A DNA stretch of 36,235 nt from Candidatus Azambacteria bacterium RIFCSPHIGHO2_02_FULL_52_12 (GCA_001775835.1 MEYP01000006.1:16486-52720), one strand, 5' to 3'; positions 1,994 to 18,514 are shown, numbered from the stretch's first letter. The notes: generated by a model from the sequence alone, not told the origin. Program-made: numbers and translations.

Positions 1994-3214
1994 TCAACTT
2001 CCAAACATGGTTTTATTGATATCACCCAAAGCGTCATACAGCACGCCGATGTCTTTTTTGGTGTTATAGATGTAGGGACTGATGCGGCAGGTCGCCGGAA
2101 CGCCGAGGAATTTGTGCAGGGGCATCGCGCAGTGGTTGCCCGCGCGCACGGCGATGTTTTGTTCATCCAGCAGGGAAGCGATATCGTGCGGATGGATGCC
2201 CTTGAGGTTGAACGCGACCGCGCCGCTTCGGCGCTTCATGTCTGTGGGACCGTAGACAGTCACGCCGGGGACCTGCCGCAATTTTTCCAGAGTGTACTGT
2301 GCAAGCTCTTTTTCATGGCGCTCGATGTTTTTCATGCCGATATGTTCCAGATAATCGACCGCCGCGCCCAAAGCGATGGCCGCTTCGATGGCGGGCGTCC
2401 CCGCTTCGAATTTCGCGGGCGCGTCGGCAAAGACGACGTTCGTTTCCGAAACCGAGCGTATCATCTCGCCGCCGCCCAAAAACGGGGGCAGGGAACCAAG
2501 ATATTTGTCTTTCATGTATAAAACGCCGATGCCGGTCGGCGCGAGCATTTTGTGCCCCGAAAACGCGTAAAAGTCGCAGTCCATCGCCGACACGTCCACG
2601 CTCATGTGCGGCACCGCCTGCGCGCCGTCAATCAGCGCGGGAATCCCGCGCGCGTGGAAAAATGAAACCAGGTCGCGCGCGGGGTTCACGGTGCCAAGCA
2701 CGTTGGAAACATGGGTGAACGCCGCCAATTTCACCTTCTTGGTCGCTTTTGCCACCAGATCTTTGGGGTCCAGCGTTCCGTCGCTTGTGATGCGTACAAA
2801 CCGCAGTTTCAGCTTCTTTTCTTTTGCGACCAGATACCACGGCACGATATTGGAGTGGTGCTCCATGACGGTCAGCAGGATTTCATCGCCCGCTTTCAGA
2901 TGGTGACGCGCGAAGCTCTGCGCCACCAGATTGACGGCCTCGGTCGTATTGCGGGTGAAAATGATGTTTCTCGCACCTTGCGCGCCGATGAAGCGGGCAA
3001 TCTTTGCGCGCGCTTCCTCGTAGTGCTTCGTCGCTTGTTCGCTCATTTCATAAATGCCCCGGTGGATGTTCGCGTTGGTGTTTTCATAATGCTTCACCAG
3101 CGCGTCTATCACCGCCTGCGGCTTTTGCGTCGTTGCGGCGCTGTCCAAATACACCAATTTAGGATTGGCTTTGAAAATAGGGAAGTCTTTTTTAATGGTG
3201 TTTTTGTTTATCAT
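1994..3214 (-). CDS. sufS: Cysteine desulfurase SufS (class V aminotransferase)
   Basis: The 406-aa ORF carries a PLP-lysine context (FSGHKMLAPTGIGVLY), the catalytic Cys loop (RAGNHCAMPL) and HHSNIVPW. Its start overlaps the sufD stop by 4 nt. Confidence 0.93.
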   Translation of the reverse strand: MINKNTIKKDFPIFKANPKLVYLDSAATTQKPQAVIDALVKHYENTNANIHRGIYEMSEQATKHYEEARAKIARFIGAQGARNIIFTRNTTEAVNLVAQSFARHHLKAGDEILLTVMEHHSNIVPWYLVAKEKKLKLRFVRITSDGTLDPKDLVAKATKKVKLAAFTHVSNVLGTVNPARDLVSFFHARGIPALIDGAQAVPHMSVDVSAMDCDFYAFSGHKMLAPTGIGVLYMKDKYLGSLPPFLGGGEMIRSVSETNVVFADAPAKFEAGTPAIEAAIALGAAVDYLEHIGMKNIERHEKELAQYTLEKLRQVPGVTVYGPTDMKRRSGAVAFNLKGIHPHDIASLLDEQNIAVRAGNHCAMPLHKFLGVPATCRISPYIYNTKKDIGVLYDALGDINKTMFGS

Positions 3215-3789
3215 GGCGTCAGAGCGAGAACATTGCTCATATCTTGGAAAAATCCGGCGACGCAGATTTTTTTCGCTTCTTTTTCGGAAAGCCCGCGCGA
3301 CCGCAGGTAAAACAGGTCCTTTGCGCTGACGCGCCCGATGCTCGAGCCGTGGCTTGCCTTCACTTCGTTTTGCAGTATCTCCAGGTCGGGCTTGATGAAC
3401 GCGCGCGCTTGTTCCGAAAGCAAGAGCGCTTTGGCGCCCAGTTTGGCATCGGCGTATTTCGCGCTTTTTTCGATGCGCACCGTGCCGTGAAACGTTACGC
3501 GCGACGAGTCTGCGAGCGCCCCTTTGAAATTCACGTTTGACGCCGTCCCTTCTGCTTTATGGACGATATCAAGCGCGATGTCCGTTTGCATGTCGCCCGA
3601 ACCTTTATATGCCCATAGTATTTCAACGGAGCTTTTTTTGCCCGCGAGCGTGACGGAAAGATGCATCTTTCTGGGCGCGTGCTTCTCAAAAAGAAAAACA
3701 AGGCGCCGCGCTTCGTTCGCTTTCGCAAGGACGATGGCATGCTCGAACGTTTCCGGCAGGGTATTTGAATGAATGGTAATATCTTGCAT
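3211..3789 (-). CDS. sufD: Short SufD-like Fe-S assembly protein (C-terminal half only)
   Basis: The 192-aa ORF matches the SufB/SufD C-terminal region (FHGTVRIEKSAKYADAKLGAKALLLSEQA...EILQNEVKASHGSSIGRVSAKDLFYLRSRGLSEKEAKK). Confidence 0.8.
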   Translation of the reverse strand: MQDITIHSNTLPETFEHAIVLAKANEARRLVFLFEKHAPRKMHLSVTLAGKKSSVEILWAYKGSGDMQTDIALDIVHKAEGTASNVNFKGALADSSRVTFHGTVRIEKSAKYADAKLGAKALLLSEQARAFIKPDLEILQNEVKASHGSSIGRVSAKDLFYLRSRGLSEKEAKKICVAGFFQDMSNVLALTP

Positions 3790-3810: not shown

Positions 3811-3845
3811 TTCTATTTTCTATTTTCTAAATTCTAGCTTCTATG
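3811..3845 (-). repeat. Heptad array (TAGAAnn) x5 in the sufB-sufD spacer
   Basis: The plus strand reads ttctatt ttctatt ttctaaa ttctagc ttctatg. On the mRNA strand this follows the sufB stop directly: TAG-CATAGAA GCTAGAA TTTAGAA AATAGAA AATAGAA. Confidence 0.9.
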
Positions 3846-6568: not shown

Positions 6569-8704
6569 TCACTTAACCTTCAATTTCGGCTCGATGCGCT
6601 TGAGCAGGACGGCGTTGGCGGCAACGATGATGGAGGAGGCCGACATCAGGAGCGCGGAGATTTCCGGGCGCAAAGACCAGCCCAGGGACGGATAAAAAAC
6701 TCCGGCGGCGACGGGAATCGCGAGAATGTTGTAAATGGCGGCCCAGAACAGGTTTTGTTTCATGGTGCGCACGGTTGCTTTGGAAAGCGTGATGGCGGCA
6801 AGCACGTCCGCCGGGTCGGATCTCATCAGCACGATATTCGCGGTTTCGATGGCAACGTCGGTGCCCGCGCCGATGGCGATGCCGATATCGGCCTCTGCGA
6901 GGGCGGGCGCGTCGTTGATGCCGTCGCCCACCATCGCGACGAATTTCCCTTCTTCCTGCAGTTTTTTCACGTACGACGCTTTATCCTGGGGGAGCACTTG
7001 CGCGAACACGCGCGTGATGCCGAGCTCGCGGGCGACCGCTTGCGCGATTTTCGGGTGGTCGCCGGTGATCATGGCGACTTCAAGTCCCAGCGCACGCATG
7101 CCCGCAACGGCTTTTTTCGCCGTCGGTTTTATCGCGTCCGCGATGCCGACGACCCCGGCGGCTTTTCCGTCGACGGCCAGCAGGGCAACAGTGTTTCCTT
7201 CATCAAGCAGGCGCTCCATGTCCTGCGCGAGGGGGGTCATGTCGATAGCATTGTCGCGCATCAGGCGTTCCGTTCCGACGAGCACGAGTCTTTTTTCCAC
7301 CATACCGCGCATGCCATGGCCTCCCAGCGCTTCGAATTTTTCGACGTCGTTGCTCGGCATGATGTTTTTTTGTCTGGCGGCGGCGAGCAGTGCAAGCGCG
7401 ATCGGGTGGTTCGATTTTGCTTCAAGCGACGCCTCCAGGCGCACCACTTCTTCCTCGGTATAGGGAGCAAGCGCGATGATTCGCGTGATAACCGGCTTTC
7501 CCTGGGTGAGCGTACCGGTTTTATCAAGGACTACGGCATTGATTTTTGACGTGTTTTCAAGCGTGGCGGCGTCTTTGATGAGGATGTTGTATTTCGCGCC
7601 GATGCCGGTGCCCACCGCGACGGCGGTCGGCGTCGCAAGCCCTAGCGCATCGGGACAGGCGATGACGACGGCCGAAATGGCGAACGTCAGCGCGGCAAGG
7701 AGCGTGGAACCGCCGATGACGTACCACCCTAAAAACGTCGCGATGCCCGACCCCAGCGCCAGCACCACCAGCCACGCGGCGGCGCTGTCTGCGATACGCT
7801 GGCCGGGCGCTTTAGAGTTTTGCGCGGTTTGGACCAGCTTCGCTATCTGCGCGAGCACGGTATCACTGCCGATCTTGGTCGCCTGAAATACCAGCGCTCC
7901 GGACGTGTTGAGCGAGCCGCCAATCACGCTATCACCTATTTTTTTTACGACCGGCATGGATTCTCCCGTCACGAGCGACTCGTCAACGGAACTTTCACCG
8001 GAAACGACAACGCCGTCAACGGGGATTTTATCGCCCGGTTTCAGCACGACCCTGTCGCCCGGCGCGATTTCCGCCGTAAGCACGAGCGTTTCTGTGCCGT
8101 CGCGCAGGACGGTCGCTTTGGGCGGAACCAGATCGAACAACGCATGCAAGGCGTCGAACGTTCCTCTGCGCGATTTCATTTCCATCCAGTGGCCGAACAA
8201 TACGAACGCGACCAGCATCGCGGCGGCTTCAAAAAACGTTTCTTCTCGCGTAAAAACAGTGAGAAGGACGCTTGCGATGTACGCGGTCAAAACGCCGGTC
8301 GCGATGAGCACGGACATGTTGAGTTTGCGCGCTTTAAGGGAGTAGTACGTTCCGGTGATGAAGATCGAACCAGCCCAGAACACTACAGGCGTCGTCAGAA
8401 GCAGCATCATCCAATTTGCCGGCAGGAAAGCGGGAAGCGTCGGGCCCAAAAAAGCCGTTCCCAGCGATGAGTACAAGACCGTGGGAATGGAAAGCGCCAA
8501 CGAGACAAAGAAACGCCGCCGCATGTCCGCTTCCATCTCTTTCGCCATTCGCGGGTCGGTCATCGCCATTTCGTGGTCCCTGTGGCTCGCCTTCCGGATA
8601 GCGTGTCCCGTATGCGTATGATTTTGCGCTTTCAAGGAGAAAGAGAAAGATTTACGGCTGGCGATGCGTATCGTCTTTTTTATCGCCGGAGCGCGTTTGC
8701 GCAA
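6569..8704 (-). CDS. Heavy-metal translocating P1B-type ATPase (copper-type signatures, CPD variant)
   Basis: The 711-aa ORF has the phosphorylation site DKTGTLT, a hinge GDGINDAPAL, the TM6 motif ACPDALGLATP, and TM7/8 motifs YNILAIP and MSASS. The N-terminus is His-rich (HTHTGH...HRDHEM) with no CxxC HMA domain. The start is uncertain: 8704 overlaps the upstream gene by 53 nt, and 8569 is the alternative. Confidence 0.9.
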   Translation of the reverse strand: MRKRAPAIKKTIRIASRKSFSFSLKAQNHTHTGHAIRKASHRDHEMAMTDPRMAKEMEADMRRRFFVSLALSIPTVLYSSLGTAFLGPTLPAFLPANWMMLLLTTPVVFWAGSIFITGTYYSLKARKLNMSVLIATGVLTAYIASVLLTVFTREETFFEAAAMLVAFVLFGHWMEMKSRRGTFDALHALFDLVPPKATVLRDGTETLVLTAEIAPGDRVVLKPGDKIPVDGVVVSGESSVDESLVTGESMPVVKKIGDSVIGGSLNTSGALVFQATKIGSDTVLAQIAKLVQTAQNSKAPGQRIADSAAAWLVVLALGSGIATFLGWYVIGGSTLLAALTFAISAVVIACPDALGLATPTAVAVGTGIGAKYNILIKDAATLENTSKINAVVLDKTGTLTQGKPVITRIIALAPYTEEEVVRLEASLEAKSNHPIALALLAAARQKNIMPSNDVEKFEALGGHGMRGMVEKRLVLVGTERLMRDNAIDMTPLAQDMERLLDEGNTVALLAVDGKAAGVVGIADAIKPTAKKAVAGMRALGLEVAMITGDHPKIAQAVARELGITRVFAQVLPQDKASYVKKLQEEGKFVAMVGDGINDAPALAEADIGIAIGAGTDVAIETANIVLMRSDPADVLAAITLSKATVRTMKQNLFWAAIYNILAIPVAAGVFYPSLGWSLRPEISALLMSASSIIVAANAVLLKRIEPKLKVK

Positions 8705-9260
8705 GAAGCCATTTTACCGAAGCGACAAAGCCGACGATAAGCAGAACCCACACGACGAGCATGAGAAGCCCGCCGAACCATCCGGCGTGGCCGAAGCTGT
8801 ATGAAGGGCCATAGCCCATCATGCCCCACCCCCCGAAATGTCCGAATCCTCCGAACGAACCGCTGTGCATCATGGACATGAAATCACCGCTTCCCGCAGG
8901 ATATGCCGCGGTCATATCGCATCCGCTCATTTGTTTTCCCATCGCGGCATGCATCTCTTCTTCACCCTCTTTTCCCAGTCTTCGTTCTATCATTTCATTC
9001 ATGGCTTCGTGCGAGGAGCCCATCATCCGGCCCATGTAGTATTCTCCCAATGCCTCAAAATCTCCCTCGGACAGTTGAGCGCAGGTGATCTGCTTCGCCT
9101 GCAATTTTTCCCAGATTTCCTTGCCCTCCGCTTCTTCTTTTGCGGTATGGCCGTCCGTTTTTTCGCCATAGCCCATCATACCCATTTGCGCCGAACTTGG
9201 CGCGGCCGATACCGCGAAAACCCCCGCCAACAGCATTCCTAGAACGATGAAATATCTCAT
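8652..9260 (-). CDS. Met/His/Gly-rich exported, C-terminally anchored protein (putative metal-binding partner of the ATPase)
   Basis: The 202-aa ORF has a signal peptide (MRYFIVLGMLLAGVFAVSAAPSSA), M/H-rich stretches (QMGMMGYG, MMGSSHEAMNEM, FMSMMHSGSFGGFGHFGGWGMMGYG) and a C-terminal TM helix (LLMLVVWVLLIVGFV). The function is inferred. Confidence 0.6.
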   Translation of the reverse strand: MRYFIVLGMLLAGVFAVSAAPSSAQMGMMGYGEKTDGHTAKEEAEGKEIWEKLQAKQITCAQLSEGDFEALGEYYMGRMMGSSHEAMNEMIERRLGKEGEEEMHAAMGKQMSGCDMTAAYPAGSGDFMSMMHSGSFGGFGHFGGWGMMGYGPSYSFGHAGWFGGLLMLVVWVLLIVGFVASVKWLLAQTRSGDKKDDTHRQP

Positions 9261-9333
9261 AGTTTTCCGATTAATTGATTATAAAAAATATCCCCCTTCT
9301 AGTATACGCCCATTGACATATGATAGCAATGTA

Positions 9334-9463
9334 TTGACCCCTCACTTGGAAAGCGCTGCGCAAAGCGCAAACATGTTTTTTTAAAAAAAGAAGTATTGTT
9401 TTGCAAAACGGACTATGAAAGCATCAGCGTTGGTTGATTGCGCCTTCCAAGCGAGGGGTTGAC
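9334..9463 (+). repeat. 130-bp TTGA-flanked inverted-repeat element, copy A
   Basis: The structure is TTGA-CCCCTCACTTGGAAAG...CTTCCAAGCGAGGGG-TTGAC. The arms are 14 of 15 complementary. The right flank doubles as a -35 box. Confidence 0.85.
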
Positions 9464-9487
9464 TCGCTATTCGTCAAGTGCTATATT
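9459..9487 (+). promoter_or_regulatory. Sigma-70-type promoter with extended -10
   Basis: TTGACT (9459-9464), a 17-bp spacer, then TGc-TATATT (-10 at 9482-9487). Confidence 0.6.
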
Positions 9488-9558
9488 ACGGGGGTTGGCG
9501 AGGGATGATTCGTAGCTCGTTTACAACTGGTTTTCACTCAGGGAAAGGAGTGTGCGCC

Positions 9559-9717
9559 ATGCAATGTAACCGCTGCAAAGGTTTAATGGTTCGAGAGTGG
9601 GCTTCGGATTCAGAAGGAACCGCAGTTTGGATTGAATTGTGGGGCTGCATTTGTTGTGGAAATTATATAGACGAAAAAGTGATTTACAACAGAATGGATG
9701 TGAAGAATTTCAAATAG
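9559..9717 (+). CDS. Small zinc-ribbon protein (52 aa), hypothetical
   Basis: The start is the internal ATG of track ORF 9478..9717, preceded by the SD AAAGGAG (9544-9550). The product is MQCNRCKGLMV...WGCICCGNYIDE, with CxxC...CxxC. A strong terminator follows. Confidence 0.55.
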   Translation: MQCNRCKGLMVREWASDSEGTAVWIELWGCICCGNYIDEKVIYNRMDVKNFK

Positions 9718-9800: not shown

Positions 9801-10955
9801 ATGGAAGCGGCCGCAAAGAAAATTTTTGTAGCTATGTCGGGAGGCGTGGATAGCTCTGTTACTGCCGCTCTGCTTAAAGAGCAGGGGCGCGACGTAACAG
9901 GCATATTCATGAAGAACTGGTCTGACAGTGCGTTTTTGAAAGACACGACTATGTGCCCGTGGGTGGCGGACCAGGAAGATGCGCGCAAGGCGGCCGCGGT
10001 CATCGGCATTCCTTTGTATACGTTCGATTTTGAAAAAGAATATCGGGAAAAAGTCGTCGCGTATATGATAGCGGGATACAAGGCGGGGATTACGCCCAAC
10101 CCGGACGTGATGTGCAACAAGGAGATAAAGTTTGGACTGTTCTTACAAAAAGCGCTCGAGCTTGGCGCCGATTTTGTGGCGACCGGCCATTACGTCCGCC
10201 TTCGGCGGAATGACGAATTTCGAATTTCGAATTTCGAAATTGATTCAAAACTTAAAATTCAAAATTCAAAATTAGGTTGCCAGTTGTTACAAGCAAAAGA
10301 TCGAAATAAAGACCAATCTTATTTTTTGTGGACTCTTACGCAAGAACAGTTGAAATATTGCGTTTTTCCCATTGGAGAATATACCAAGCCGGAGGTGCGC
10401 GAGATGGCGCGGAAATACGGTTTGCATAACGCCCAGAAGAAAGACAGCCAGGGAGTGTGCTTCGTGGGCGACTTGGATGTGTTTGAATTTTTAAAGAGTC
10501 AAATCCCGACGCACAAGGGAAAGATCATGACCGCAAGCGGCAGGGAGGTCGGCGAGCACGAGGGTGTGGAATTTTACACTATCGGCCAGCGCCATGGCAT
10601 CGGTTCGCCTGGTGGCGGAACGGCGTATTATGTGGTTGGCAAGGATGCAAAGAAGAATATCTTGTATGTCGGCGAGGGCGCGGATGACAAAGAGCTCTAC
10701 GGCATGGCGCTTGAAGCCAGGGCAGCGCATTGGATTTCCGGCAACGAGCCAGAGTTGCCGTTACGCTGTGAAGCCAGAATACGGTATAGACAATCATTAC
10801 AGAAGTGTATTGTGAATTCTCTGTTTCATGTTTCACGTTTCATGTTTCACGTTGAGTTCGACGAGCCCCAGCGCGCTATCACGCCTGGCCAGTCTGTTGT
10901 TTTTTATGACGGGGATACGGTCCTTGGCGGTGCCGTAATCGTGCAAAAAGTTTGA
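9801..10955 (+). CDS. mnmA: tRNA 2-thiouridine(34) synthase MnmA
   Basis: The 384-aa ORF has the PP-loop (VAMSGGVDSSV), NPDVMCN, ATGHY, KDQSYFLW, DSQGVCF and the C-terminal AITPGQSVVFYDG. It contains two heptad-repeat tracts, listed separately. Confidence 0.93.
   Translation: MEAAAKKIFVAMSGGVDSSVTAALLKEQGRDVTGIFMKNWSDSAFLKDTTMCPWVADQEDARKAAAVIGIPLYTFDFEKEYREKVVAYMIAGYKAGITPNPDVMCNKEIKFGLFLQKALELGADFVATGHYVRLRRNDEFRISNFEIDSKLKIQNSKLGCQLLQAKDRNKDQSYFLWTLTQEQLKYCVFPIGEYTKPEVREMARKYGLHNAQKKDSQGVCFVGDLDVFEFLKSQIPTHKGKIMTASGREVGEHEGVEFYTIGQRHGIGSPGGGTAYYVVGKDAKKNILYVGEGADDKELYGMALEARAAHWISGNEPELPLRCEARIRYRQSLQKCIVNSLFHVSRFMFHVEFDEPQRAITPGQSVVFYDGDTVLGGAVIVQKV
10214..10276 (+). repeat. Nine 7-bp repeat units (63 bp, 21 codons) inside mnmA
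   Basis: The units read cgaattt x3, cgaaatt, gattcaa, aacttaa, aattcaa x2, aattagg. The tract is AT-rich compared with its flanks and encodes DEFRISNFEIDSKLKIQNSKL. Confidence 0.9.
10823..10853 (+). repeat. GTTTCAY heptad x4 inside mnmA
   Basis: The sequence gtttcat gtttcac gtttcat gtttcac gtt encodes FHVSRFMFHV. Confidence 0.9.
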
Positions 10956-11457: not shown

Positions 11458-13404
11458 ATGACGACTAATGAAGTACGGCAGAAATTCCTTGAATTCTTCC
11501 GAGAAAAAGGGCATGCCGTCATTCCCTCGGCTCCGCTCGTGCCCGACGACAAAACGGTGCTGTTCGTGACGGCCGGCATGCAACCGCTGGTGCCGTATTT
11601 GATGGGGGAGAGAAAGCACCCGCAGGGCGCGCGGCTTGCCAACTCGCAGAAATGCCTTCGCACGGATGATATTTTAGAAGTGGGGGACAATCGCCACCTC
11701 ACATTCTTTGAAATGCTCGGCAACTGGTCGCTGGGGGACCCGTCCGAACCGGACGCCAGCCCGACAGGGTCATCCGCCCGGCCAGGCCATTCGGACGGGT
11801 TCCGGCGGGGTATCGGCCGGGCGGGCTATTTCAAAAAAGAGTCCATTGCGTGGAGTTTTGAGCTTTTGACGTCAAAAAAATGGTTCGGCATCGATCCCGA
11901 AAAACTGTATGTCACCGTGTTTGAAGGAGATGCGACAATGGGTATCGCGCGCGACGACGAATCTATCGGTTACTGGAAAGAAGCATTCAAAACCGCGGGC
12001 ATAGATGCGAGTTTGGAAAACGGGCGCATTTCCGCCTATCCCAAAAAGAAAAATTGGTGGGAACTTGCCGGGTCGGGACCATGCGGGCCGGATACGGAGA
12101 TTTTCTACGATATGGGAAAAGAACATGACCCGGTATTTGGCGAACAATGCCATGCGAACTGCGACTGCGGGCGGTTTGTGGAAATCTGGAACAATGTGTT
12201 CATGGAATACGAAAAAAAGGCGGACGGTCCGCCGGTTGGCGGAGGTGGATATTCGTATGTACCGCTCGCGCAGAAAAACGTGGATACCGGCATGGGTCTT
12301 GAGCGCATCACGATGGTTTTACAAGGCGTTGAAACGGTATTTGAGATAGATGTTTTTAAAAAAATCATCGGGAGCATAGAGACAAAAAAAGTCCCCTACG
12401 AGAAAGAAGCGCGAAGATATCGCATCATTGCTGATCATCTGCGCGCGGCGGTGTTTCTGATCTCTGACGGCGTTGCACCTTCGAATGTGGAGCGAGGATA
12501 TATTCTGCGCAGTCTTTTGCGGCGTGCAATAGCGCAGGCGAGGATTTTGAATTTGCCGTTGCGTGATTTTCCAGTGAAACCGATTGAAAGAACACGCGAG
12601 TACTATAAAGAAAATTACCGACTTTCCGCGCTGCCGGCGATTATTGATATTGTAAAAAAAGAATTTGACGCGTTTCTGACGGCATTTGAGAAAGGGAGAA
12701 AAGAGGTTTTACGCATTGTCGGGAAAATACCCGAGGGCGGCGTGATACCCGCCAGAGACGCGTTCAATCTTCATCAGACATACGGTTTTCGGATTGAGTT
12801 GATGATTGATCTGGCAAAAGATTCCGGGCATACCGTGGATGAAAAAGGGTTCTGGGAAGAATACAAAAAGCACCAGGAGATTTCCCGCGCGGGATCAGAG
12901 AAAAAATTCGGCGGGCATGGTTTAATGCTGCAGACCGGTGAGCTGAAAGCGGCTGATGAAGAAGAGTTGAAAAAAGTGACGCGCCTGCACACGGCGACGC
13001 ATCTTTTGCAGGCGGCTTTGCGCAGGGTTTTGGGCGACCACGTGCACCAGATGGGTTCGGACATCACGGCAGAACGCCTGCGGTTCGACTTTTCGCACCC
13101 GCAAAAAATGACGGATGAGGAAAAAAAGAAGGTGGAAGAGGTGGTGAATAAGGAAATCCAAAAAGGACACGCGATGACCCATAAGGAAATGCCGATTGAC
13201 GAAGCGGAAAAAACCGGCGCATTGATGTTTCAAAAGGAAAAATACGGGAAAACGGTGAAAGTATATTCGGCCGGAGATTTCTCCAAAGAGCTCTGCGGAG
13301 GACCGCATGTGGCGAACACGAAAGAAGTGGGAACATTCAAAATCCTCAAAGAAGAGGCATCTTCCGCCGGCGTTCGTCGCATCCGCGCAACAGTTGTTGA
13401 TTGA
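11458..13404 (+). CDS. alaS: Alanine--tRNA ligase, short form lacking the C-terminal C-Ala/DHHA1 region
   Basis: The start is moved to MTTNEVRQKFLEFFREKGH because track start 11392 lies inside the terminator stem. The ORF has FEMLGNWSLGD...YFKKE, the editing-domain motifs HTATHLLQAAL and CGGPHV, and ends at ...RRIRATVVD. It is 648 aa. Confidence 0.9.
   Translation: MTTNEVRQKFLEFFREKGHAVIPSAPLVPDDKTVLFVTAGMQPLVPYLMGERKHPQGARLANSQKCLRTDDILEVGDNRHLTFFEMLGNWSLGDPSEPDASPTGSSARPGHSDGFRRGIGRAGYFKKESIAWSFELLTSKKWFGIDPEKLYVTVFEGDATMGIARDDESIGYWKEAFKTAGIDASLENGRISAYPKKKNWWELAGSGPCGPDTEIFYDMGKEHDPVFGEQCHANCDCGRFVEIWNNVFMEYEKKADGPPVGGGGYSYVPLAQKNVDTGMGLERITMVLQGVETVFEIDVFKKIIGSIETKKVPYEKEARRYRIIADHLRAAVFLISDGVAPSNVERGYILRSLLRRAIAQARILNLPLRDFPVKPIERTREYYKENYRLSALPAIIDIVKKEFDAFLTAFEKGRKEVLRIVGKIPEGGVIPARDAFNLHQTYGFRIELMIDLAKDSGHTVDEKGFWEEYKKHQEISRAGSEKKFGGHGLMLQTGELKAADEEELKKVTRLHTATHLLQAALRRVLGDHVHQMGSDITAERLRFDFSHPQKMTDEEKKKVEEVVNKEIQKGHAMTHKEMPIDEAEKTGALMFQKEKYGKTVKVYSAGDFSKELCGGPHVANTKEVGTFKILKEEASSAGVRRIRATVVD
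11740..11826 (+). repeat. 87-bp GC-rich palindromic element translated in-frame within alaS
   Basis: It encodes PSEPDASPTGSSARPGHSDGFRRGIGRAG between the GD and YFK residues. It has interleaved perfect 10-bp inverted repeats at 11739-48 / 11790-99 and 11774-83 / 11815-24. Its core resembles the reverse complement of the 61-bp element at 14011 and 14728. Confidence 0.85.
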
Positions 13405-13432: not shown

Positions 13433-13651
13433 ATGAAACAGGAATTTACAGCGGTCTATAAAAAGAGCGGAAAGTGGTACGTGGGGTGGGTGGAAGAGGT
13501 TTCCGGCGTGAATACGCAGGGGAAAACGCTCAAGGAAACAAAGGAAAATCTCCGCGAGGCGCTTTCTTTGGTGCTTGAGACGAACCGGATGTTGAGCAGA
13601 ATAGACGGGCGTCGGGCGATACGCGAACCGATCAGCGTTTTTGCGCGATGA
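13433..13651 (+). CDS. hicB: HicB-like antitoxin (72 aa)
   Basis: The start is the internal ATG of track ORF 13307..13651. MKQEFTAVYKKSGKWYVGWVEEVSGVNTQGKTLKETKENLREALSL fits the HicB/UPF0150 N-terminal fold pattern. An ATGA overlap couples it to hicA. Confidence 0.7.
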   Translation: MKQEFTAVYKKSGKWYVGWVEEVSGVNTQGKTLKETKENLREALSLVLETNRMLSRIDGRRAIREPISVFAR

Positions 13652-13842
13652 AGCGGGGAGATCTGATTTCGCATCTTGTACGCGAAGGATGCGTATTCAT
13701 CAGGGAGGGCGCTCGCCATAGCGTCTTTTTTAATCCGTTTACCAGGCGGACCTCCACGGTACCGCGGCATACGGAAGTAAATGACTTTCTTGCGCGGAAA
13801 ATTTGCCGCGATTTGGGCGTTGATAATGTGCGGAAAAAGTAG
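13648..13842 (+). CDS. hicA: HicA-family mRNA interferase toxin (64 aa)
   Basis: MKRGDLISHLVREGCVFIREGARHSVFFNP...TVPRHTEVNDFLARKICRDLGV matches the HicA pattern (G-x-H ... VP-x-H). Confidence 0.8.
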   Translation: MKRGDLISHLVREGCVFIREGARHSVFFNPFTRRTSTVPRHTEVNDFLARKICRDLGVDNVRKK

Positions 13843-13863: not shown

Positions 13864-15096
13864 ATGCCTTTCATTGAACGAAAAGAATTTCAAAAATATC
13901 AGGAAACGATCATGGTTGCCGTATACAGTGACAGGGTTTCCGCGTATGCGATAGGGAAAAATGCGGCCGGATACAACATTGTCGCCGGCGCGACCGAAGA
14001 ACAGGAAGAAGCCCGCCTGAACCCCGTCCGAACGGATGTTCATCCGGGCGGGGATCCAATGGTCGGGCAGGGAGAATTAAATACGGGAAAAATAAAACTT
14101 AACTGCCAGAAGGCGCTGCAGCGGCTCCCGCGCGAACACATGAAAAGCGGTATGCCCGTCGTCTTCGCGCTGGGGCCGGGCGCTTCGGAATGCGCTTTTG
14201 TATCGATCGATGCGCGGCGCGAACAGAAAGACGCGATCATTTCCGAAAGCGAAGTGAAGTCCATTATCGAGAGATCGTACGGCCTTAAGGCATCCGAAAG
14301 CGGCAAGGCATCCCTCAATGTTCCCGCGGGTTTTCTTGTGGACGGATTCTCGGTGCCTGACCCCGTCGGTTTGAACGGCCAGAATATCACCGTCAATCTG
14401 GTCAGCGTCAGCGCTTCCCGGGCGCTCGAAGAATCGTTTTCCGACATCGCGTCGTCGTACGGCTTGCGGTATGGCGGCATGGTCAATATATGCGGCATGC
14501 TTGCCGATGCCATGCCGTTATTCACGCAGGATGCCGATTGCGTGGCGATGCTCGTTTTCGAGCGGGAGATCATTCTGGCGCTCGTGCGCGGGAAAAAAAT
14601 ATCCGCCATTGGAAAAGCGGACGGCGGATATGGTATACTAGAACAAGAAGCGGCACGATCGTTTTCGGTAGGAATCGAGGAGGCGAAGAATATTTTGCGC
14701 GCGTTCGAGAAAAAACAGACGGATGCCGCCCGCCTGAACCCCGTCCGAACGGATGTTCATCCGGGCGGGGATCCAATGGTCGGGCAGGCCGTCGCGGAAA
14801 AGATAAACGAGCTGTCCGCGCGCGTCGTTTCCGACATCGCGCGGCGCATCGGATCGGCGCTTCCCAAGCTTGATTTTGAACATCTGATTCCCGCGACATT
14901 CCTGGTTGCGCAGTTCGGAAATCTTTCGCACCTGTCGCAGGCGTTGATCGACAACCCGACCTGGCTTGCCCAGGCGCCGGTCGCGAGAAACGCAGGGGTC
15001 GCGCGCATGAGCCCGCTCAAACAGAACATTCAGGACGACAAAAAAGTGCTCGCGGACGGCGATGCATACATACTAACCGCGCTTATGCGATCATGA
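13864..15096 (+). CDS. FtsA/PilM-like actin-fold protein (degenerate nucleotide-binding motifs)
   Basis: The 410-aa ORF has segments resembling FtsA (VNLVSVSASRALEESFSDIASSYGLRYGGMVNICGMLADA; GGYGILEQEAARSFSVGIEEAKNIL). The phosphate-binding DxGGG-type motifs are not evident. It contains two identical 61-bp inserts. Confidence 0.5.
   Translation: MPFIERKEFQKYQETIMVAVYSDRVSAYAIGKNAAGYNIVAGATEEQEEARLNPVRTDVHPGGDPMVGQGELNTGKIKLNCQKALQRLPREHMKSGMPVVFALGPGASECAFVSIDARREQKDAIISESEVKSIIERSYGLKASESGKASLNVPAGFLVDGFSVPDPVGLNGQNITVNLVSVSASRALEESFSDIASSYGLRYGGMVNICGMLADAMPLFTQDADCVAMLVFEREIILALVRGKKISAIGKADGGYGILEQEAARSFSVGIEEAKNILRAFEKKQTDAARLNPVRTDVHPGGDPMVGQAVAEKINELSARVVSDIARRIGSALPKLDFEHLIPATFLVAQFGNLSHLSQALIDNPTWLAQAPVARNAGVARMSPLKQNIQDDKKVLADGDAYILTALMRS
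14011..14071 (+). repeat. 61-bp GC-rich palindromic element, copy 1 (in-frame)
   Basis: The sequence is gcccgcctgaaccccgtccgaacggatgttcatccgggcggggatccaatggtcgggcagg. It encodes ARLNPVRTDVHPGGDPMVGQ and is identical to 14728-14788. Confidence 0.95.
14728..14788 (+). repeat. 61-bp GC-rich palindromic element, copy 2 (in-frame)
   Basis: It is a perfect copy of 14011-14071, lying 717 bp (239 codons) downstream in the same gene. The flanks are unrelated. Confidence 0.95.
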
Positions 15097-16814
15097 AAAA
15101 AATACTCTACGTACATCCCGACGAAACCATCGCCTATCTCATTGACCGGATGGAAAATACCGATTCGGATACGCTTTTTATCGTCGCGGACGCCAACGCC
15201 GCGCTCTTTATGGATTCGGTGAACCTGAAATTGCTCAAGCGCGAAGCGGACGGATTCCGCAAGCAATGCGTCATCGTTTCCCAAGCCCCGGCTGTTCTCG
15301 CCATGGCGCGCGAGGCCGGGTTTGACACATCGTCGGAAGATATCGCTCCTGAAGAGTCCGGGTACCCGCCCGTACCGAATGAGTACGTTCGGGCGGGCGG
15401 CGTGCAGCATGAAGTACCCAGTTCGACGGATTCGGCGGGCTCACTGCAGGCGGAATCGGAAGAAGAAGTGCCGGTGCATGTCCGGTCCAGCGCTCCCGAG
15501 AGCGGTCTTTCCATGGCTTCCGGGCGTTTTGTTTCGCATGACGCGCCACCCTCCGGCACAGAGGCCGATGAAGAGATGCATTATGAGAACAGCCCCGAAG
15601 AATCCGAAGAAGCGGGAGCGGGTGGTGCGCGCGACTATCGTGACGCCCGAAAAGGGGCGCCCGGCATGCCGCTCAACTGGAAATTCCTTGGCGCGACGCT
15701 CGCGGGGGTGCTTGTCGTCGCTGTCGCCGGTTTCTATCTTTTTTCCCCTAAGCTGTCCGTTTCCATCGTTCCCAAGAAAGAAACGCTGAATTTTGATTTT
15801 CAGGTGGTTGGCGACCTTGCGTTGTCGAGCGTTAATCTGACGAAAGCGCGCATCCCCGGGCAGGTCGTCACCATCGCGCAAGAGCAATCCGATTCGTTTC
15901 CCGCTACGGGAAAACAAGACAAAGAAACCAAGGCGGAAGGGGAGATCGTTATTTACAACGCGTTCGGCGCGGGCATCCAGACGCTGGTGAAAAATACCCG
16001 TTTCAAAGCGAAAGACGGCAAGTTGTTCCGCCTGGTGAGCGCGGTGACGGTTCCCGGCGCGAAGATGGAAGGAGGGAAAGTCGCCACGCCGGGCACGGTG
16101 AACGCGCGCGTTGTGGCAGACCAGCCGGGCGCGGCGTACAATATCGATCCGACTGATTTTTCAATACCCGGATTTCAGGATACTCCCAAGTTCCTCGGTT
16201 TTTACGGGAAATCAACCAAGCCCATGAGCGGAGGCGGTTCAAGCAACGCGCGGTTCGCCACTCGGGAAGATCTGGACAAAGCGAAGGCGGCGCTTTCCGA
16301 TGCTCTTGCCAAAAGCGCCCAAAGCCATGTCGCGTCGCAGATTCCCAAAGGGCTCAAGGCCGTTTCCGAGGCATTCGCACAGGAGGCGCCCCAGTTGACT
16401 CCCGGTTCGGTTGACGCGGACGGGATGTTCAAAGCGACGCTCAAAACGACCTATACCATTTTCGCTTTTTCCGAGAATGATATCATCGCGCTGATAGACC
16501 ATACGGTATCGGGAAGGATCTCGGAACGGCGCAAGGCCATCCCGGAGACGCGCGTTATTTCTTATGTCGATGAAGTCGTCAGTCAGGACAAAAAGTCGTT
16601 CTCGTTTACGGCAAAAATAAGCGAGCTGGTGCTTGGCATCATAGACCACAACGACATGCGGCTCCTGTTGGCGGGCAAAAACGAGTCGGAGATCAGGCAG
16701 ATACTGGGCGCCAATGAATCCATTGAGGGAGCGGAAATAACGTTTTGGCCGTTGTGGGCTTCGGCGGCTCCGGCAAACCCCGACATGATAAAGGTTTTTG
16801 TGGATGAGTCTTGA
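15093..16814 (+). CDS. Single-pass membrane protein with acidic linker and large extracytoplasmic domain, hypothetical
   Basis: The 573-aa ORF is coupled by an ATGA overlap to the FtsA-like gene. It has an N-terminal cytoplasmic domain, a low-complexity E/S/P-rich linker, one TM helix (LGATLAGVLVVAVAGFYLF) and about 350 aa outside. Confidence 0.75.
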   Translation: MKKILYVHPDETIAYLIDRMENTDSDTLFIVADANAALFMDSVNLKLLKREADGFRKQCVIVSQAPAVLAMAREAGFDTSSEDIAPEESGYPPVPNEYVRAGGVQHEVPSSTDSAGSLQAESEEEVPVHVRSSAPESGLSMASGRFVSHDAPPSGTEADEEMHYENSPEESEEAGAGGARDYRDARKGAPGMPLNWKFLGATLAGVLVVAVAGFYLFSPKLSVSIVPKKETLNFDFQVVGDLALSSVNLTKARIPGQVVTIAQEQSDSFPATGKQDKETKAEGEIVIYNAFGAGIQTLVKNTRFKAKDGKLFRLVSAVTVPGAKMEGGKVATPGTVNARVVADQPGAAYNIDPTDFSIPGFQDTPKFLGFYGKSTKPMSGGGSSNARFATREDLDKAKAALSDALAKSAQSHVASQIPKGLKAVSEAFAQEAPQLTPGSVDADGMFKATLKTTYTIFAFSENDIIALIDHTVSGRISERRKAIPETRVISYVDEVVSQDKKSFSFTAKISELVLGIIDHNDMRLLLAGKNESEIRQILGANESIEGAEITFWPLWASAAPANPDMIKVFVDES

Positions 16815-16940
16815 CCCCTCACTTGGAAAGGATATTTGATGGGAATATGCCGTAATACACTTAACGTTTTTGACTAACGTATTTTGGGAACTTGGAAGGC
16901 ATGTCGCTTTGCGACAATCCTTTCCAAGTGAGGGGTTGAC
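16811..16940 (+). repeat. 130-bp TTGA-flanked inverted-repeat element, copy B
   Basis: The structure is TTGA-CCCCTCACTTGGAAAGGAT...ATCCTTTCCAAGTGAGGGG-TTGAC, a perfect 19-bp inverted repeat. The left TTGA contains the TGA stop of the upstream gene. An internal third arm-like copy, ACTTGGAAGG, lies at 16890-16899. Confidence 0.9.
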
Positions 16941-17279: not shown

Positions 17280-17393
17280 ATGAAAATCAGAGCATCCGTA
17301 AAAAAAATATGCGCGAAGTGCAAATCTGTGCGAAGGTTCGGAAGGATCTATGTGCTCTGCGCGAATCCAAAACATAAACAAAGACAGAAATAG
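17280..17393 (+). CDS. rpmJ: 50S ribosomal protein L36
   Basis: This ORF is too short for the ORF track. Hand translation gives [37 protein letters not shown] (37 aa). The stop TAG is the first unit of the heptad array. Confidence 0.9.
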
Positions 17394-17473
17394 AAACTAG
17401 AAATTAGAAAGTAGAATCTAGAACTAAGGAGTCCAAACTTCTATTTTCTAGATTCTAGCTTCTAGATTCCACA
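17391..17473 (+). repeat. Heptad palindrome: (TAGAAnn)x5, a spacer containing AAGGAG, then (TTCTAnn)x4-5
   Basis: The sequence is tagaaac tagaaat tagaaag tagaatc tagaact | aaggagtccaaac | ttctatt ttctaga ttctagc ttctaga ttccaca. For example, tagaatctagaa pairs perfectly with ttctagattcta. Confidence 0.9.
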
Positions 17474-17476
17474 ACT

Positions 17477-18017: not shown

Positions 18018-18473
18018 ATGGGAAAGAAGAAAATAACAACGCAGAACGAAGCGCAGATGTTGAAAGAAACAGGAGCCCTTGAAACGGCGTCTAAGAAAGT
18101 CGCGGCCGCGCCCGCCTCAAGCAAACGTTTCATAAAAAGCGGCAAAGCATACGTGCAGGCGACCTACAACAATACCATCGTATCGTTGACGGATGATGCG
18201 GGCAACGTGCTTGGCTGGGCGTCCGCGGGTTCCATGGGATTTAAAGGAGCGAAAAAATCGACGCCGTTCGCCGCGTCCAAAGTCGTTGAAGCGGTGGTGG
18301 AAAAGGGAAAGAAGGCCGGCATGCAGGATGTCGCGGTTTATGTGAAAGGCATCGGTTCAGGCAGAGAATCGGCCGTCCGGTCCCTCGCTACCCATCTTAA
18401 TCTGTCCAGCATAACGGACGTGACCCCCATCCCGCATAACGGATGCCGGCCGCCGAAAGTCAGGAGAGTATAA
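18018..18473 (+). CDS. rpsK: 30S ribosomal protein S11 (N-terminally extended)
   Basis: The 151-aa ORF contains [18 protein letters not shown] and ends [20 protein letters not shown]. Confidence 0.93.
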
Positions 18474-18514
18474 CAGAAATAGAAACTAGAATTTAGAAAA
18501 TAGAAACTAGAATA
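18473..18514 (+). repeat. Heptad array (TAGAAnn)x5-6 filling the rpsK-rpsD spacer
   Basis: The sequence is acagaaa tagaaac tagaatt tagaaaa tagaaac tagaatATG. The last unit overlaps the rpsD start, and there is no SD. Confidence 0.9.

What the first reader, a model, noticed from the sequence alone, without database searches (positions are those of the whole stretch)
9334..9463. Copy A of the TTGA-flanked element between divergent promoters of the metal-efflux genes and a zinc-ribbon ORF
The structure is TTGA | CCCCTCACTTGGAAAG ... CTTCCAAGCGAGGGG | TTGACT-17-TGcTATATT. The arms are shorter (about 15 bp) with one mismatch, which would be a G-U pair only on the minus-strand transcript. The interior has small palindromes (TGCGCAAAGCGCA, TTTTTTTAAAAAAA, GTTTTGCAAAAC).

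The left arm is nearly identical to copy B's left arm (CCCCTCACTTGGAAAG), although the interiors are unrelated. There is no upstream co-directional gene here, so the left TTGA is not a stop codon. This shows that the TTGA flank belongs to the element or its target, not to the gene ends.
Basis: seen in the sequence. Interest (0 to 1): 0.6.

Follow-up and report, generated by a model that had tools for sequence, protein, structure and literature searches.

The report
Hairpin mini-transposon inserted in a promoter
The 121-base hairpin at 9338-9458 is a gene-less copy of a small mobile DNA element of ultra-small (CPR) bacteria. It landed in the TTGA of a promoter and duplicated it, and its gene-carrying relatives encode only a tiny GIY-YIG nuclease, which may make this an undescribed kind of bacterial transposon.

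Summary
Copy A (9338-9458) and copy B (16815-16935) are both 121 nt. Their arms are 19 nt and start CCCCTCACTTGGAAAG, and both copies are flanked by TTGA...TTGA.

Two syntenic relatives have the copy B site empty, with a single TTGA. So the flank is a 4-bp target-site duplication, not part of the element.

The same arms bracket 121-143-nt elements in more than 100 loci from Patescibacteria (CPR) genomes and metagenomes.
- Flanking direct repeats of 4 nt or more occur in 38 of 71 elements, against about 4 expected.
- 27 of 71 sit at TTGA/TCAA, and these are mostly genuine promoter -35 boxes (17 of 22 have a -10, against a 9% background).
- 22 of 71 abut tRNA gene ends within 0-2 nt. Two more abut tmRNA ends.

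Longer elements with the same or related arms hold one ORF, an 84-87-aa GIY-YIG nuclease that resembles Slx1 and UPF0213. Its stop codon lies in the right arm. These elements sit inside duplicated tRNA 5' ends, and their terminal G-run rebuilds the tRNA.

Copy A is therefore a non-autonomous, MITE-like member of this family, and the -35 box it split was restored by the duplication. That the GIY-YIG protein moves these elements is inferred, not shown. I found no published description.

The parts
9334..9337 (.). Left copy of the target-site duplication (TTGA) of copy A
   Evidence: Read from the sequence. The same TTGA follows the right arm. Its status as a duplication rests on copy B's empty sites and on family statistics.
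9338..9458 (-). Copy A: a 121-nt ORF-less hairpin element. The strand given is the 'sense' strand, defined by the covarying subterminal hairpin lying next to the right arm as in the ORF-bearing relatives.
   Evidence: It folds at -45 to -46 kcal/mol with z = -4.4 to -5.4. Metagenome contigs match only this stretch at about 90% identity, with unlike flanks.
9338..9356 (.). Left terminal inverted repeat of copy A (CCCCTCACTTGGAAAGCGC)
   Evidence: It has 2 mismatches to the right arm.
9357..9369 (.). Subterminal hairpin TGCGCAAAGCGCA
   Evidence: The homologous hairpin covaries across the family.
9440..9458 (.). Right terminal inverted repeat of copy A (GCGCCTTCCAAGCGAGGGG)
9459..9487 (+). Promoter-like site TTGACT-17-TATATT. 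Its first four bases are the right copy of the duplication. It faces the zinc-ribbon ORF (ATG at 9559) and mnmA (9801-10955).
   Evidence: 10 of 12 matches, TG extension. Across the family, -35/-10 pairing is enriched at such edges.
9301..9329 (-). Divergent promoter-like site TTGCTA-17-TATACT for the 202-aa gene and P-type ATPase operon. It lies 4 nt (9330-9333) left of the left TTGA, that is 8 nt left of the element.
16811..16814. Left duplication copy (TTGA) of copy B. Its TGA is the stop codon of the 573-aa gene.
16815..16935 (+). Copy B: a 121-nt ORF-less element with perfect 19-nt arms and a subterminal hairpin at 16902-16916
   Evidence: z = -7.3 to -8.3. The insertion is proven by the empty sites in L029 and L030.
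16936..16939 (.). Right duplication copy (TTGA) of copy B, the start of TTGACT upstream of infA

Best explanation
Copy A is a non-autonomous, MITE-like member of a family of small mobile DNA elements that is widespread in Patescibacteria (CPR). An element consists of two about 19-bp terminal inverted repeats (CCCCTCACTTGGAAA...) around a short AT-rich interior with a conserved subterminal hairpin.

Shown: it inserts with a short target-site duplication. Here it landed in the TTGA of a sigma-70-type -35 hexamer. The duplicated TTGA plus the old downstream sequence rebuilds TTGACT-17-TATATT, so the promoter of the zinc-ribbon ORF and mnmA stays intact.

Also shown: the family's other favoured targets are the 5' and 3' ends of tRNA and tmRNA genes. 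There the duplication plus the element's terminal G-run rebuilds the RNA gene.

Inferred: gene-carrying relatives hold a single ORF for an 84-87-aa GIY-YIG nuclease, closest to UPF0213 and Slx1, exactly between the arms. I infer that this nuclease, supplied in trans, cuts at the base of the hairpin or cruciform formed by the arms and nicks the target, so that it mobilises ORF-less copies like A and B.

Not shown: any benefit of copy A to the host. Most likely it is a tolerated selfish insertion.
For: Insertion and target duplication:
- The spacer between the 573-aa gene and infA reads gagtcTTGA|CTTCTC in L029 and gagtcTTGA|CTTACT in L030. The window has TTGA-[121 nt]-TTGACTTCT at that site.
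- Of 71 non-redundant elements, 38 have a flanking direct repeat of 4 nt or more. About 3.7 are expected when flanks are re-paired.

Mobility:
- Copies at unrelated loci of one MAG are up to 99% identical inside, while their flanks are about 50% identical.
- Metagenome contigs match only the element part of copy A.

Target choice:
- 27 of 71 elements have TTGA/TCAA at the junction, against a background of 4.3% per flank.
- 17 of 22 outward-facing TTGANN hexamers at element edges have TAnnnT at 16-18 nt, against 9% for all such hexamers (p = 3e-14).
- 22 of 71 abut tRNA ends within 0-2 nt. tmRNA ends are abutted in L039 and L093.

Link to the nuclease:
- ORF-bearing elements have the same or related arms, with the start codon 3-12 nt inside the left arm.
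- The stop codon lies in the right arm in four of them (L008, L019, L027, L129) and just before it in L131 and L133.
- The clearly distinct ORF-bearing elements lying beside a tRNA 5' end are co-directional with that tRNA.
- Arm variants track protein divergence.
- The catalytic residues Y5, Y16, G18, R26, H30 and E50 are invariant.
- The Pfam GIY-YIG match has E = 4e-16. The nearest folds are UPF0213 and Slx1, at TM 0.62-0.66.
- The subterminal hairpin keeps pairing through compensatory changes in all 4 of its pairs.
Against: - No GIY-YIG gene lies in this 36-kb window. I could not scan the rest of the genome.
- No experiment or read-level evidence shows excision or trans-mobilisation. Only assembled contigs were available and no RNA runs were listed.
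- I found no empty site for copy A itself.
- Duplication length is not fixed: 4-5 bp is usual, but 7-9 bp occurs at tRNA 5' ends. That is unusual for a classical transposase.
- Similarity between ORF-less interiors and the ends of ORF-bearing elements is only modest (z = 2.9 and 1.9).
- An 86-aa protein with only a catalytic core has no obvious DNA-recognition domain.
- Arm conservation in the collected set is partly forced by the search pattern.
Confidence: 0.62

Rival explanations
1. It is a mobile MITE, but the GIY-YIG ORF is only a passenger (a free-standing homing-type gene that itself invaded the hairpin element). The real mobilising enzyme is an unidentified transposase or a host function.
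For: The nuclease is tiny and has no DNA-binding domain. The window holds no such gene. Some bacterial MITE families have no known cognate transposase (my own knowledge). In L021-L026 and L132 the ORF lies between two arm-only hairpins rather than inside one.
Against: At least six different arm families each bracket an ORF of this same protein clade with the same tight layout: the start codon just inside the left arm, and the stop codon in or beside the right arm. Arm divergence parallels protein divergence. No other candidate gene recurs next to the elements in about 130 loci.
Confidence: 0.2
2. It is a host-serving structured repeat that is now kept for function. Examples would be an RNase III processing or insulating hairpin, a terminator or mRNA stabiliser, or a promoter-region architectural site. 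Mobility would be only its origin.
For: It forms very stable hairpins (z down to -8). The subterminal hairpin covaries. Copies sit between tRNA genes, where transcripts must be processed. A terminator-like hairpin plus T-run lies inside copy A. Hairpin insertions in 23S rRNA are known to be removed by RNase III (PMC11270868, introduction).
Against: Copy A lies upstream of both divergent -35 boxes, so neither adjacent promoter should transcribe it. Close relatives manage without the element at the copy B site. Orientation relative to neighbouring genes is not fixed. The interiors differ greatly between copies.
Confidence: 0.12
3. It is an independent small RNA gene, or a chance resemblance of GGGG/TTGAC-proximal promoter sequence.
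For: A TTGAC lies just upstream of each copy. No other support was found.
Against: The arm 16-mer occurs 4 times against 0.17 expected. The arms recur in more than 100 loci from different CPR phyla. Nothing reaches any Rfam gathering score in the window, and the permissive scan of 9250-9550 gives only chance-level hits (E of 2.5 or more) to unrelated families. Empty sites show insertion. The element occurs in both orientations relative to TTGA.
Confidence: 0.03

Closest known systems
Bacterial MITEs, for example Correia elements (CREE/NEMIS) of Neisseria and ERIC/IRU and RUP elements (from my own knowledge of these families)
   Same: Size of about 100-150 bp, terminal inverted repeats, short target duplications, intergenic location, many copies per genome, long hairpins when transcribed, and frequent overlap with promoters.
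   Different: The arm sequence is unrelated. The duplication is TTGA or another 4-5 bp (7-9 bp at tRNA 5' ends), not TA. The hosts are CPR bacteria. The targets are -35 hexamers and tRNA/tmRNA ends. Gene-carrying relatives encode a GIY-YIG nuclease, not a DDE transposase.
Intervening sequences (IVS) of bacterial 23S rRNA genes, and the uncharacterised GIY-YIG-encoding and short (under 200 bp) non-intron insertions reported in CPR rRNA genes (PMC11270868)
   Same: Hairpin-forming insertions in stable-RNA genes of reduced genomes. Some carry a small ORF. GIY-YIG proteins in CPR were noted there to lie in insertions that are not introns.
   Different: The window copies lie in promoter DNA, not in rRNA. 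I did not show that the rRNA insertions carry these arms. RNase III removal is untested here.
GIY-YIG homing endonucleases (I-TevI, the Seg proteins of phage T4)
   Same: A GIY-YIG catalytic core encoded by a selfish element that targets highly conserved sequences.
   Different: Those enzymes are over 200 aa with a separate DNA-binding domain. They spread by double-strand-break repair and leave no inverted repeats or target duplications. This protein is 84-87 aa, and its fold is nearer to Slx1 and UPF0213 than to I-TevI.
Slx1 and UPF0213 (YhbQ-type) minimal GIY-YIG nucleases
   Same: They are the best sequence and fold matches: 1ywl and 1zg2 by sequence, and Slx1 at TM 0.62-0.66 with rmsd about 2 A. 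Slx1 cuts branched DNA, the kind of structure the arms would extrude.
   Different: Those are housekeeping repair-type proteins and are not known to lie between inverted repeats. No activity data exist for this clade.
Penelope-like retroelements (GIY-YIG endonuclease plus reverse transcriptase; PMC8557442)
   Same: A GIY-YIG nuclease serves integration of a mobile element. Variable-length target duplications are reported for them (my own knowledge).
   Different: They are eukaryotic, copied through RNA, and need a reverse transcriptase. No polymerase is encoded here.
REP/BIME with RAYT, and IS200/IS605-derived palindromic elements
   Same: Short palindromic repeats mobilised in trans by a small nuclease-type protein, with subterminal hairpins as likely recognition features.
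   Different: Those use HUH (Y1) enzymes, have no terminal inverted repeats spanning the element, and make no target duplication.

Membership tests
MITE (miniature inverted-repeat transposable element) | Small size (under about 300 bp) and no coding capacity | tested here: met
   The element is 121 nt. It holds no ORF of its own; the only ORFs of at least 40 aa overlapping it start outside it and merely run into it (9247-9384 +, and 9478-9717 + from an upstream GTG).
MITE (miniature inverted-repeat transposable element) | Terminal inverted repeats | tested here: met
   The arms are 19 nt, with 2 mismatches in copy A and none in copy B.
MITE (miniature inverted-repeat transposable element) | Target-site duplication, shown against an empty site | tested here: met
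   Met for copy B: L029 and L030 have one TTGA where the window has TTGA-element-TTGA. Family-wide, 38 of 71 elements have repeats of 4 nt or more against about 4 expected. For copy A itself only the flanking TTGA pair is seen, and no empty site was found.
MITE (miniature inverted-repeat transposable element) | Multiple dispersed copies with similar sequence | tested here: met
   There are 2 copies in the window, at least 7 in one MAG with up to 99% interior identity, and about 110 loci overall.
MITE (miniature inverted-repeat transposable element) | An autonomous partner with the same ends that encodes the mobilising enzyme | tested here: inconclusive
   Longer elements with the same arms exist (L008, L108/L038, L129). 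They encode a GIY-YIG nuclease, which is not a recognised transposase class, and its role in mobility is untested.
Correia element (Neisseria) | Characteristic 26-bp inverted repeats and TA duplication | tested here: not met
   The arms are CCCCTCACTTGGAAA..., and the duplications are TTGA, TCAA and others. The Correia consensus is recalled from memory and was not aligned.
REP/BIME-RAYT or IS200/IS605-type palindromic element | No terminal inverted repeats across the element, no target duplication, HUH enzyme | tested here: not met
   Inverted repeats and duplications are present. The associated ORF is GIY-YIG.
Integron attC site | R''/R' core sites RYYYAAC ... GTTRRRY at the two ends | tested here: not met
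   The right edge GTTGACT and the left edge do not fit the consensus on either strand (read). There is no integrase or cassette array in the window.
23S rRNA intervening sequence (IVS) | Lies in an rRNA gene and is removed from the transcript by RNase III | tested here: not met
   The window copies lie in intergenic promoter DNA. RNase III processing is not testable here because no RNA runs were listed.
GIY-YIG homing endonuclease gene (for the associated ORF) | GIY-YIG catalytic motifs | tested here: met
   Pfam PF01541 at E = 4e-16. Y5, Y16, G18, R26, H30 and E50 are invariant in 16 homologues.
GIY-YIG homing endonuclease gene (for the associated ORF) | Separate DNA-binding domain, and spread by homing without target duplication | tested here: not met
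   The protein is 84-87 aa with the core plus one C-terminal helix only. The elements are flanked by target duplications.
Known Rfam RNA family | Score at or above a family's gathering threshold | tested here: not met
   No match in the whole window. Only chance-level hits (E of 2.5 or more) in 9250-9550.

The most novel reading that the evidence does not exclude
These hairpin elements are a previously unrecognised class of prokaryotic transposable element. Their only protein would be an about 86-aa Slx1-like GIY-YIG nuclease that acts on the cruciform or hairpin formed by the element's own ends. The class would specialise in 'safe' universal targets (promoter -35 hexamers and the ends of tRNA and tmRNA genes) and would repair the target it splits through the duplication plus its terminal G-run. 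The uncharacterised GIY-YIG and short insertions in CPR rRNA genes may belong to the same class.
Probability: 0.45. Interest if true: 0.85.

Novelty: new variant of a known kind. Interest (0 to 1): 0.7.

Why it matters
If the GIY-YIG protein is the mobilising enzyme, it would add a nuclease family to the short list of enzymes known to move prokaryotic DNA elements. It would also be one of the smallest such enzymes.

The target logic is unusual and testable. The element splits the most conserved short non-coding sequences of a genome (-35 boxes and tRNA/tmRNA ends) and restores them by duplication. This explains how it can multiply in tiny, gene-dense CPR genomes.

There are practical consequences too. 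These hairpins break assemblies, shift gene-start and tRNA predictions (orphan tRNA 5' fragments), and can be mistaken for terminators or sRNAs. The work also gives a concrete candidate identity for unexplained insertions in CPR stable-RNA genes.

Tried and rejected
- Rfam found nothing at gathering thresholds in the whole window, and only chance-level hits around copy A with the permissive scan. ARAGORN found no tRNA in the window.
- Empty site for copy A: a search with the adjacent 202-aa protein found no relative above about 56% identity, so no orthologous spacer was available. The syntenic relative L030 lacks the ATPase cluster.
- Read-level evidence: only assembled contigs of DNA runs were available. 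They show no joints that skip the element. No RNA runs were listed.
- I tried to orient the elements by their GC-richer subterminal hairpin, to see whether TTGA or TCAA depends on orientation. There is no consistent relation, and 15 of 71 elements are ambiguous.
- attC, REP and IS200/IS605 readings were rejected on end structure and on the presence of duplications.
- The operator-pair or DNA-looping reading was rejected because of the empty sites and the dispersed copies.
- Eight literature searches found no description of this family. The library lacks most subscription journals, so earlier work cannot be excluded.

Full report
**1. The observation**

The sequence at 9334-9487 reads TTGA | CCCCTCACTTGGAAAGCGC ... 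GCGCCTTCCAAGCGAGGGG | TTGACT-17-TATATT. The arm 16-mer CCCCTCACTTGGAAAG occurs four times in the window, allowing up to 2 mismatches. These are the two arms of copy A (9338-9458) and the two arms of copy B (16815-16935). Chance would give 0.17, and none of 100 shuffles reached four.

Both copies are exactly 121 nt, and both are flanked by TTGA on the left and TTGAC(T) on the right. Each strand folds far better than shuffled controls, at -45 to -51 kcal/mol with z from -4.4 to -8.3.

The arms of A pair over 19 nt with two mismatches, and both mismatches are G.U only on the minus-strand transcript. Copy B is inverted relative to A. With B flipped, the two interiors share a subterminal hairpin (GCGCAAAGCGC against TCGCAAAGCGA) followed by ACATG.

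**2. Context**

The window comes from a Patescibacteria (CPR) genome recovered from groundwater. Identical stretches occur in GCA_001774085.1, on a 941-kb ENA scaffold, and in other assemblies.

To the left of copy A, on the minus strand, lie a 202-aa gene and a P-type ATPase. To its right lie a 52-aa Cys-rich ORF and mnmA. The promoter scan finds TTGACT-17-TATATT starting exactly at the right TTGA. It also finds a divergent TTGCTA-17-TATACT that ends 4 nt before the left TTGA. So copy A sits between two back-to-back -35 boxes.

Copy B sits between the stop codon of a 573-aa gene and infA.

**3. It is an insertion with a target-site duplication**

Two relatives keep the same gene order: 573-aa homologue, infA, rpsM, rpsK, rpsD, rpoA. 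Their spacers are only 38 and 40 nt, and read ...gagtcTTGA|CTTCTCATCGATAATTTGTTACAAAGG (L029) and ...gagtcTTGA|CTTACTATCTATAATTTGTTACAAAGG (L030). The window reads ...gagtcTTGA-[121 nt]-TTGA|CTTCTTTTCTATAATTTGTTACAAAGG.

So one TTGA became two, one on each side of the element. The TTGA belongs to the target.

A third relative (L028) carries a different CCCC...GGGG hairpin (CCCCGTTACAATCC...GGATTGTAACGGGG) just before the same TTGACTTC. This marks the site as a hot spot.

I could not find an empty site for copy A. Its left neighbour has no close relatives.

**4. The family**

A two-arm pattern found 12 loci among species-representative genomes, from Paceibacterota, Parcubacteria-group, Saccharibacteria and other Patescibacteria. 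It found 98 stretches in metagenomes. After removing duplicates, 71 ORF-less elements of 121-143 nt remained.
- **Duplications.** A strict direct repeat of 4 nt or more flanks 38 of the 71, against about 3.7 expected when flanks are re-paired. Lengths of 4 and 5 nt dominate, with a few of 6-9 nt.
- **tRNA and tmRNA ends.** 22 of 71 abut a tRNA gene end within 0-2 nt, 15 at the 3' end and 7 at the 5' end. Two further copies abut the 5' or 3' end of tmRNA.
- **TTGA/TCAA sites.** 27 of 71 have TTGA or TCAA at the junction, and 23 of these have it on both sides. The background is 4.3% per flank.
- **Real -35 boxes.** Of 22 outward-facing TTGANN hexamers at element edges, 17 have TAnnnT 16-18 nt further on. 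For all such hexamers in the same loci the figure is 9% (p = 3e-14).
- **Recent movement.** Within one MAG, copies at unrelated loci are 88-99% identical inside, while their flanks are about 50% identical.
- **Paralogues of copy A.** Metagenome contigs match only the element part of copy A at about 90% identity, with unlike flanks.

**5. Architecture**

Most elements have 19-21-nt arms, an AT-rich hairpin next to one arm, a variable AT-rich spacer, and a short GC-richer hairpin next to the other arm.

In an alignment of 18 members, all four pairs of the GC-richer hairpin keep pairing through changes on both sides: UA/CG, GC/UA, GC/AU and CG/UA. The arms themselves are invariant, which is partly forced by the search pattern.

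Copy A (TGCGCAAAGCGCA, 9357-9369) and copy B (TGTCGCTTTGCGACA, 16902-16916) both have this hairpin.

**6. Gene-carrying relatives**

In L008 the same arms enclose 295 nt, not about 130, and this element lies between tRNA-Leu and tRNA-Val. Inside is one ORF of 87 aa. It starts 12 nt after the left arm, and its stop codon TGA lies in the right arm (...TCC AAG TGA GGGG).

It is a GIY-YIG domain protein (Pfam E = 4e-16). The word-based protein search returned 441 hits at E of 0.001 or below. The hits listed are mostly 84-87 aa, and nearly all the named ones come from Patescibacteria. In a library clustered at 50% identity it matches 834 clusters at E of 1e-10 or below. Y5, Y16, G18, R26, H30 and E50 are invariant in 16 homologues.

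By sequence, the nearest solved structures are the UPF0213 proteins 1ywl and 1zg2. The predicted fold has mean pLDDT 86. It matches UPF0213 and the nuclease domain of Slx1 (TM 0.62-0.66, rmsd about 2 A) better than I-TevI or UvrC.

Further contexts show the same layout:
- L019/L020: GGCCAGGTAG|CCCCTCACATGGAAATTAT-ATG...ATAATTTCCATGTGAGGGG|CCAGGTAGCCAAGCGG... (a tRNA).
- L027: an ORF element followed in tandem by a 75-nt ORF-less element with the same ACTTGC arm variant. Each is preceded by a copy of CGATTAG from the tRNA 5' end.
- L108/L038 and L129: ACTTGGAAA and ACTTGAAAA arms at tRNA 5' ends.
- Other arm families around more distant members of the same protein clade:
  - CCCCCACACCATAACAAGCTT, duplication TCCA, at a tRNA 3' end.
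  - CCCGGTAATTCAAC..., duplication TATG.
  - CCCCGTAGTAGAATTTCAAAT, duplication TATG.
  - CCCGCACACCATTTGAGT, duplication CCTG, at a tRNA-Ala 5' end.
  - CCCCCCACCACTTT, in an Omnitrophota MAG.

Proteins at 60% identity or more to the L008 protein carry CCCCTCAC arms. Those at 40-50% carry other arms.

At tRNA 5' ends the element lies after tRNA position 10 (...TAG|C) in most cases, and after position 7 in L133. It is co-directional with the tRNA. It is preceded by an orphan copy of the first 7-10 nt of the tRNA. The terminal GGG(G) of the right arm plus the duplicated bases rebuilds a complete tRNA gene.

**7. Relation of ORF-less to ORF-bearing elements**

Three things tie them together: shared arm variants at the same loci, the same targets, and the same duplications.

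Direct similarity of the interiors is only modest. For the two L008 elements, the first and last 45 interior bases align with z = 2.9 and 1.9 in the matching orientation. In the wrong orientation the values are 1.3 and -0.7. So origin by internal deletion is plausible but not proven.

**8. Mechanism**

Shown:
- Insertion with a short target duplication.
- Preference for -35 hexamers and for tRNA/tmRNA ends.
- Restoration of the split target.
- Recent multiplication within genomes.
- A conserved subterminal hairpin.
- Tight physical association with an intact, conserved GIY-YIG ORF.

Inferred:
- The nuclease recognises the branched DNA formed by the arms, as Slx1 recognises branched DNA, and cuts at the stem base.
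- It makes staggered nicks in the target. Two independent nicks would explain why duplication length varies.
- ORF-less copies are moved in trans.
- ORF-bearing copies at tRNA 5' ends are transcribed from the tRNA promoter, and RNase P then releases the rebuilt tRNA.
- The arm stem may let RNase III remove transcribed copies.

For copy A specifically, the reconstructed pre-insertion sequence is ...TAGCAAtgtaTTGACTcgc.... The insertion leaves TTGACT-17-TATATT intact on the right, and the divergent promoter untouched on the left. Neither adjacent promoter should transcribe the element. Its two arm mismatches suggest an older, decaying copy.

**9. Unexplained**

In 12 of the 38 elements with a duplication of 4 nt or more, GGG directly precedes the left copy, or CCC directly follows the right copy. 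The expectation is 1.6% (p = 7e-13). The target therefore often resembles the element's own right end plus the duplication. G-rich tRNA acceptor ends explain part of this.

The duplication length is bimodal: 4-5 nt in general, and 7-9 nt at tRNA 5' ends. This also lacks an explanation.

**10. Comparison and novelty**

By structure the window element passes the tests for a MITE. It is not a Correia, REP, IS200/IS605-type, attC or Rfam family member.

The closest published hint I found is a survey of CPR rRNA insertions. It notes that GIY-YIG proteins are encoded by insertions that are not introns, and that many short insertions of under 200 bp are uncharacterised (PMC11270868). It describes no arms, duplications or tRNA/promoter targets.

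Eight searches found no description of the family. The library is incomplete, so earlier work cannot be excluded.

I rate the window feature as a new variant of a known kind. If the nuclease is shown to be the transposase, the family would be a new class of prokaryotic mobile element.

Noticed in passing
window 14004-14071 and 14721-14788: A 68-nt direct repeat, 96% identical, whose copies start 717 nt (239 codons) apart inside the ORF 13864-15096. It contains its own palindrome (CCCGCC..CGGATGTTCATCCG..GGCGGGG). It could be another small palindromic insert or a recent internal duplication.
   Followed up: no
window 30154-30198 and 30793-30837: Two 45-nt palindromic direct repeats (AATCGTACACAA...TTGTGTACGATT, 96% identical) bracket a 185-aa ORF with a PaaX/Cas2-like domain. 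They are possibly operator sites.
   Followed up: partly
window 3811-3844, 17370-17476, 18473-18512: TAGAAA/CTAGAA-rich repeats lie in three intergenic spacers (suf cluster, infA-rpsM, rpsK-rpsD). They are up to 94% complementary to each other in opposite orientation.
   Followed up: no
L028 5385-5695: In a 72%-identical relative, the site of copy B holds a different hairpin element (arms CCCCGTTACAATCC / GGATTGTAACGGGG) plus a partial arm repeat, directly before the same TTGACTTC. This is an independent hit on the same -35 box.
   Followed up: partly
L021-L026 (about 2920-3340) and L132 (about 1420-1830): Arm-only mini hairpins of about 38-41 nt each lie inside a duplicated tRNA-Ala 5' end. 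There are two copies, and they bracket a GIY-YIG ORF. This layout differs from 'ORF between the arms' and is conserved in two lineages.
   Followed up: partly
L039 6753-6889 with tmRNA 6887-7257; L093 tmRNA 12148-12521 with element 12523-12657: Elements also abut the 5' and the 3' end of tmRNA genes. At the 5' end, a GATGC duplication plus the arm's GGGG rebuilds the tmRNA start.
   Followed up: partly
L038 3668-7851: The 23S rRNA gene spans 4184 nt against a 2925-nt model, so it holds about 1.2 kb of insertions. A hairpin element (8099-8229) and two GIY-YIG ORFs lie just upstream in the same operon.
   Followed up: no
71 family members in loci L007-L128: GGG directly precedes the left duplication copy, or CCC directly follows the right copy, in 12 of 38 cases against 1.6% expected. 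The target therefore often mimics the element's right end plus the duplication. This is unexplained.
   Followed up: partly
window 13433-13842: A HicB/HicA toxin-antitoxin pair lies between alaS and the 410-aa ORF. The assignment comes from gene calls on identical contigs, shifted by 200 nt.
   Followed up: no
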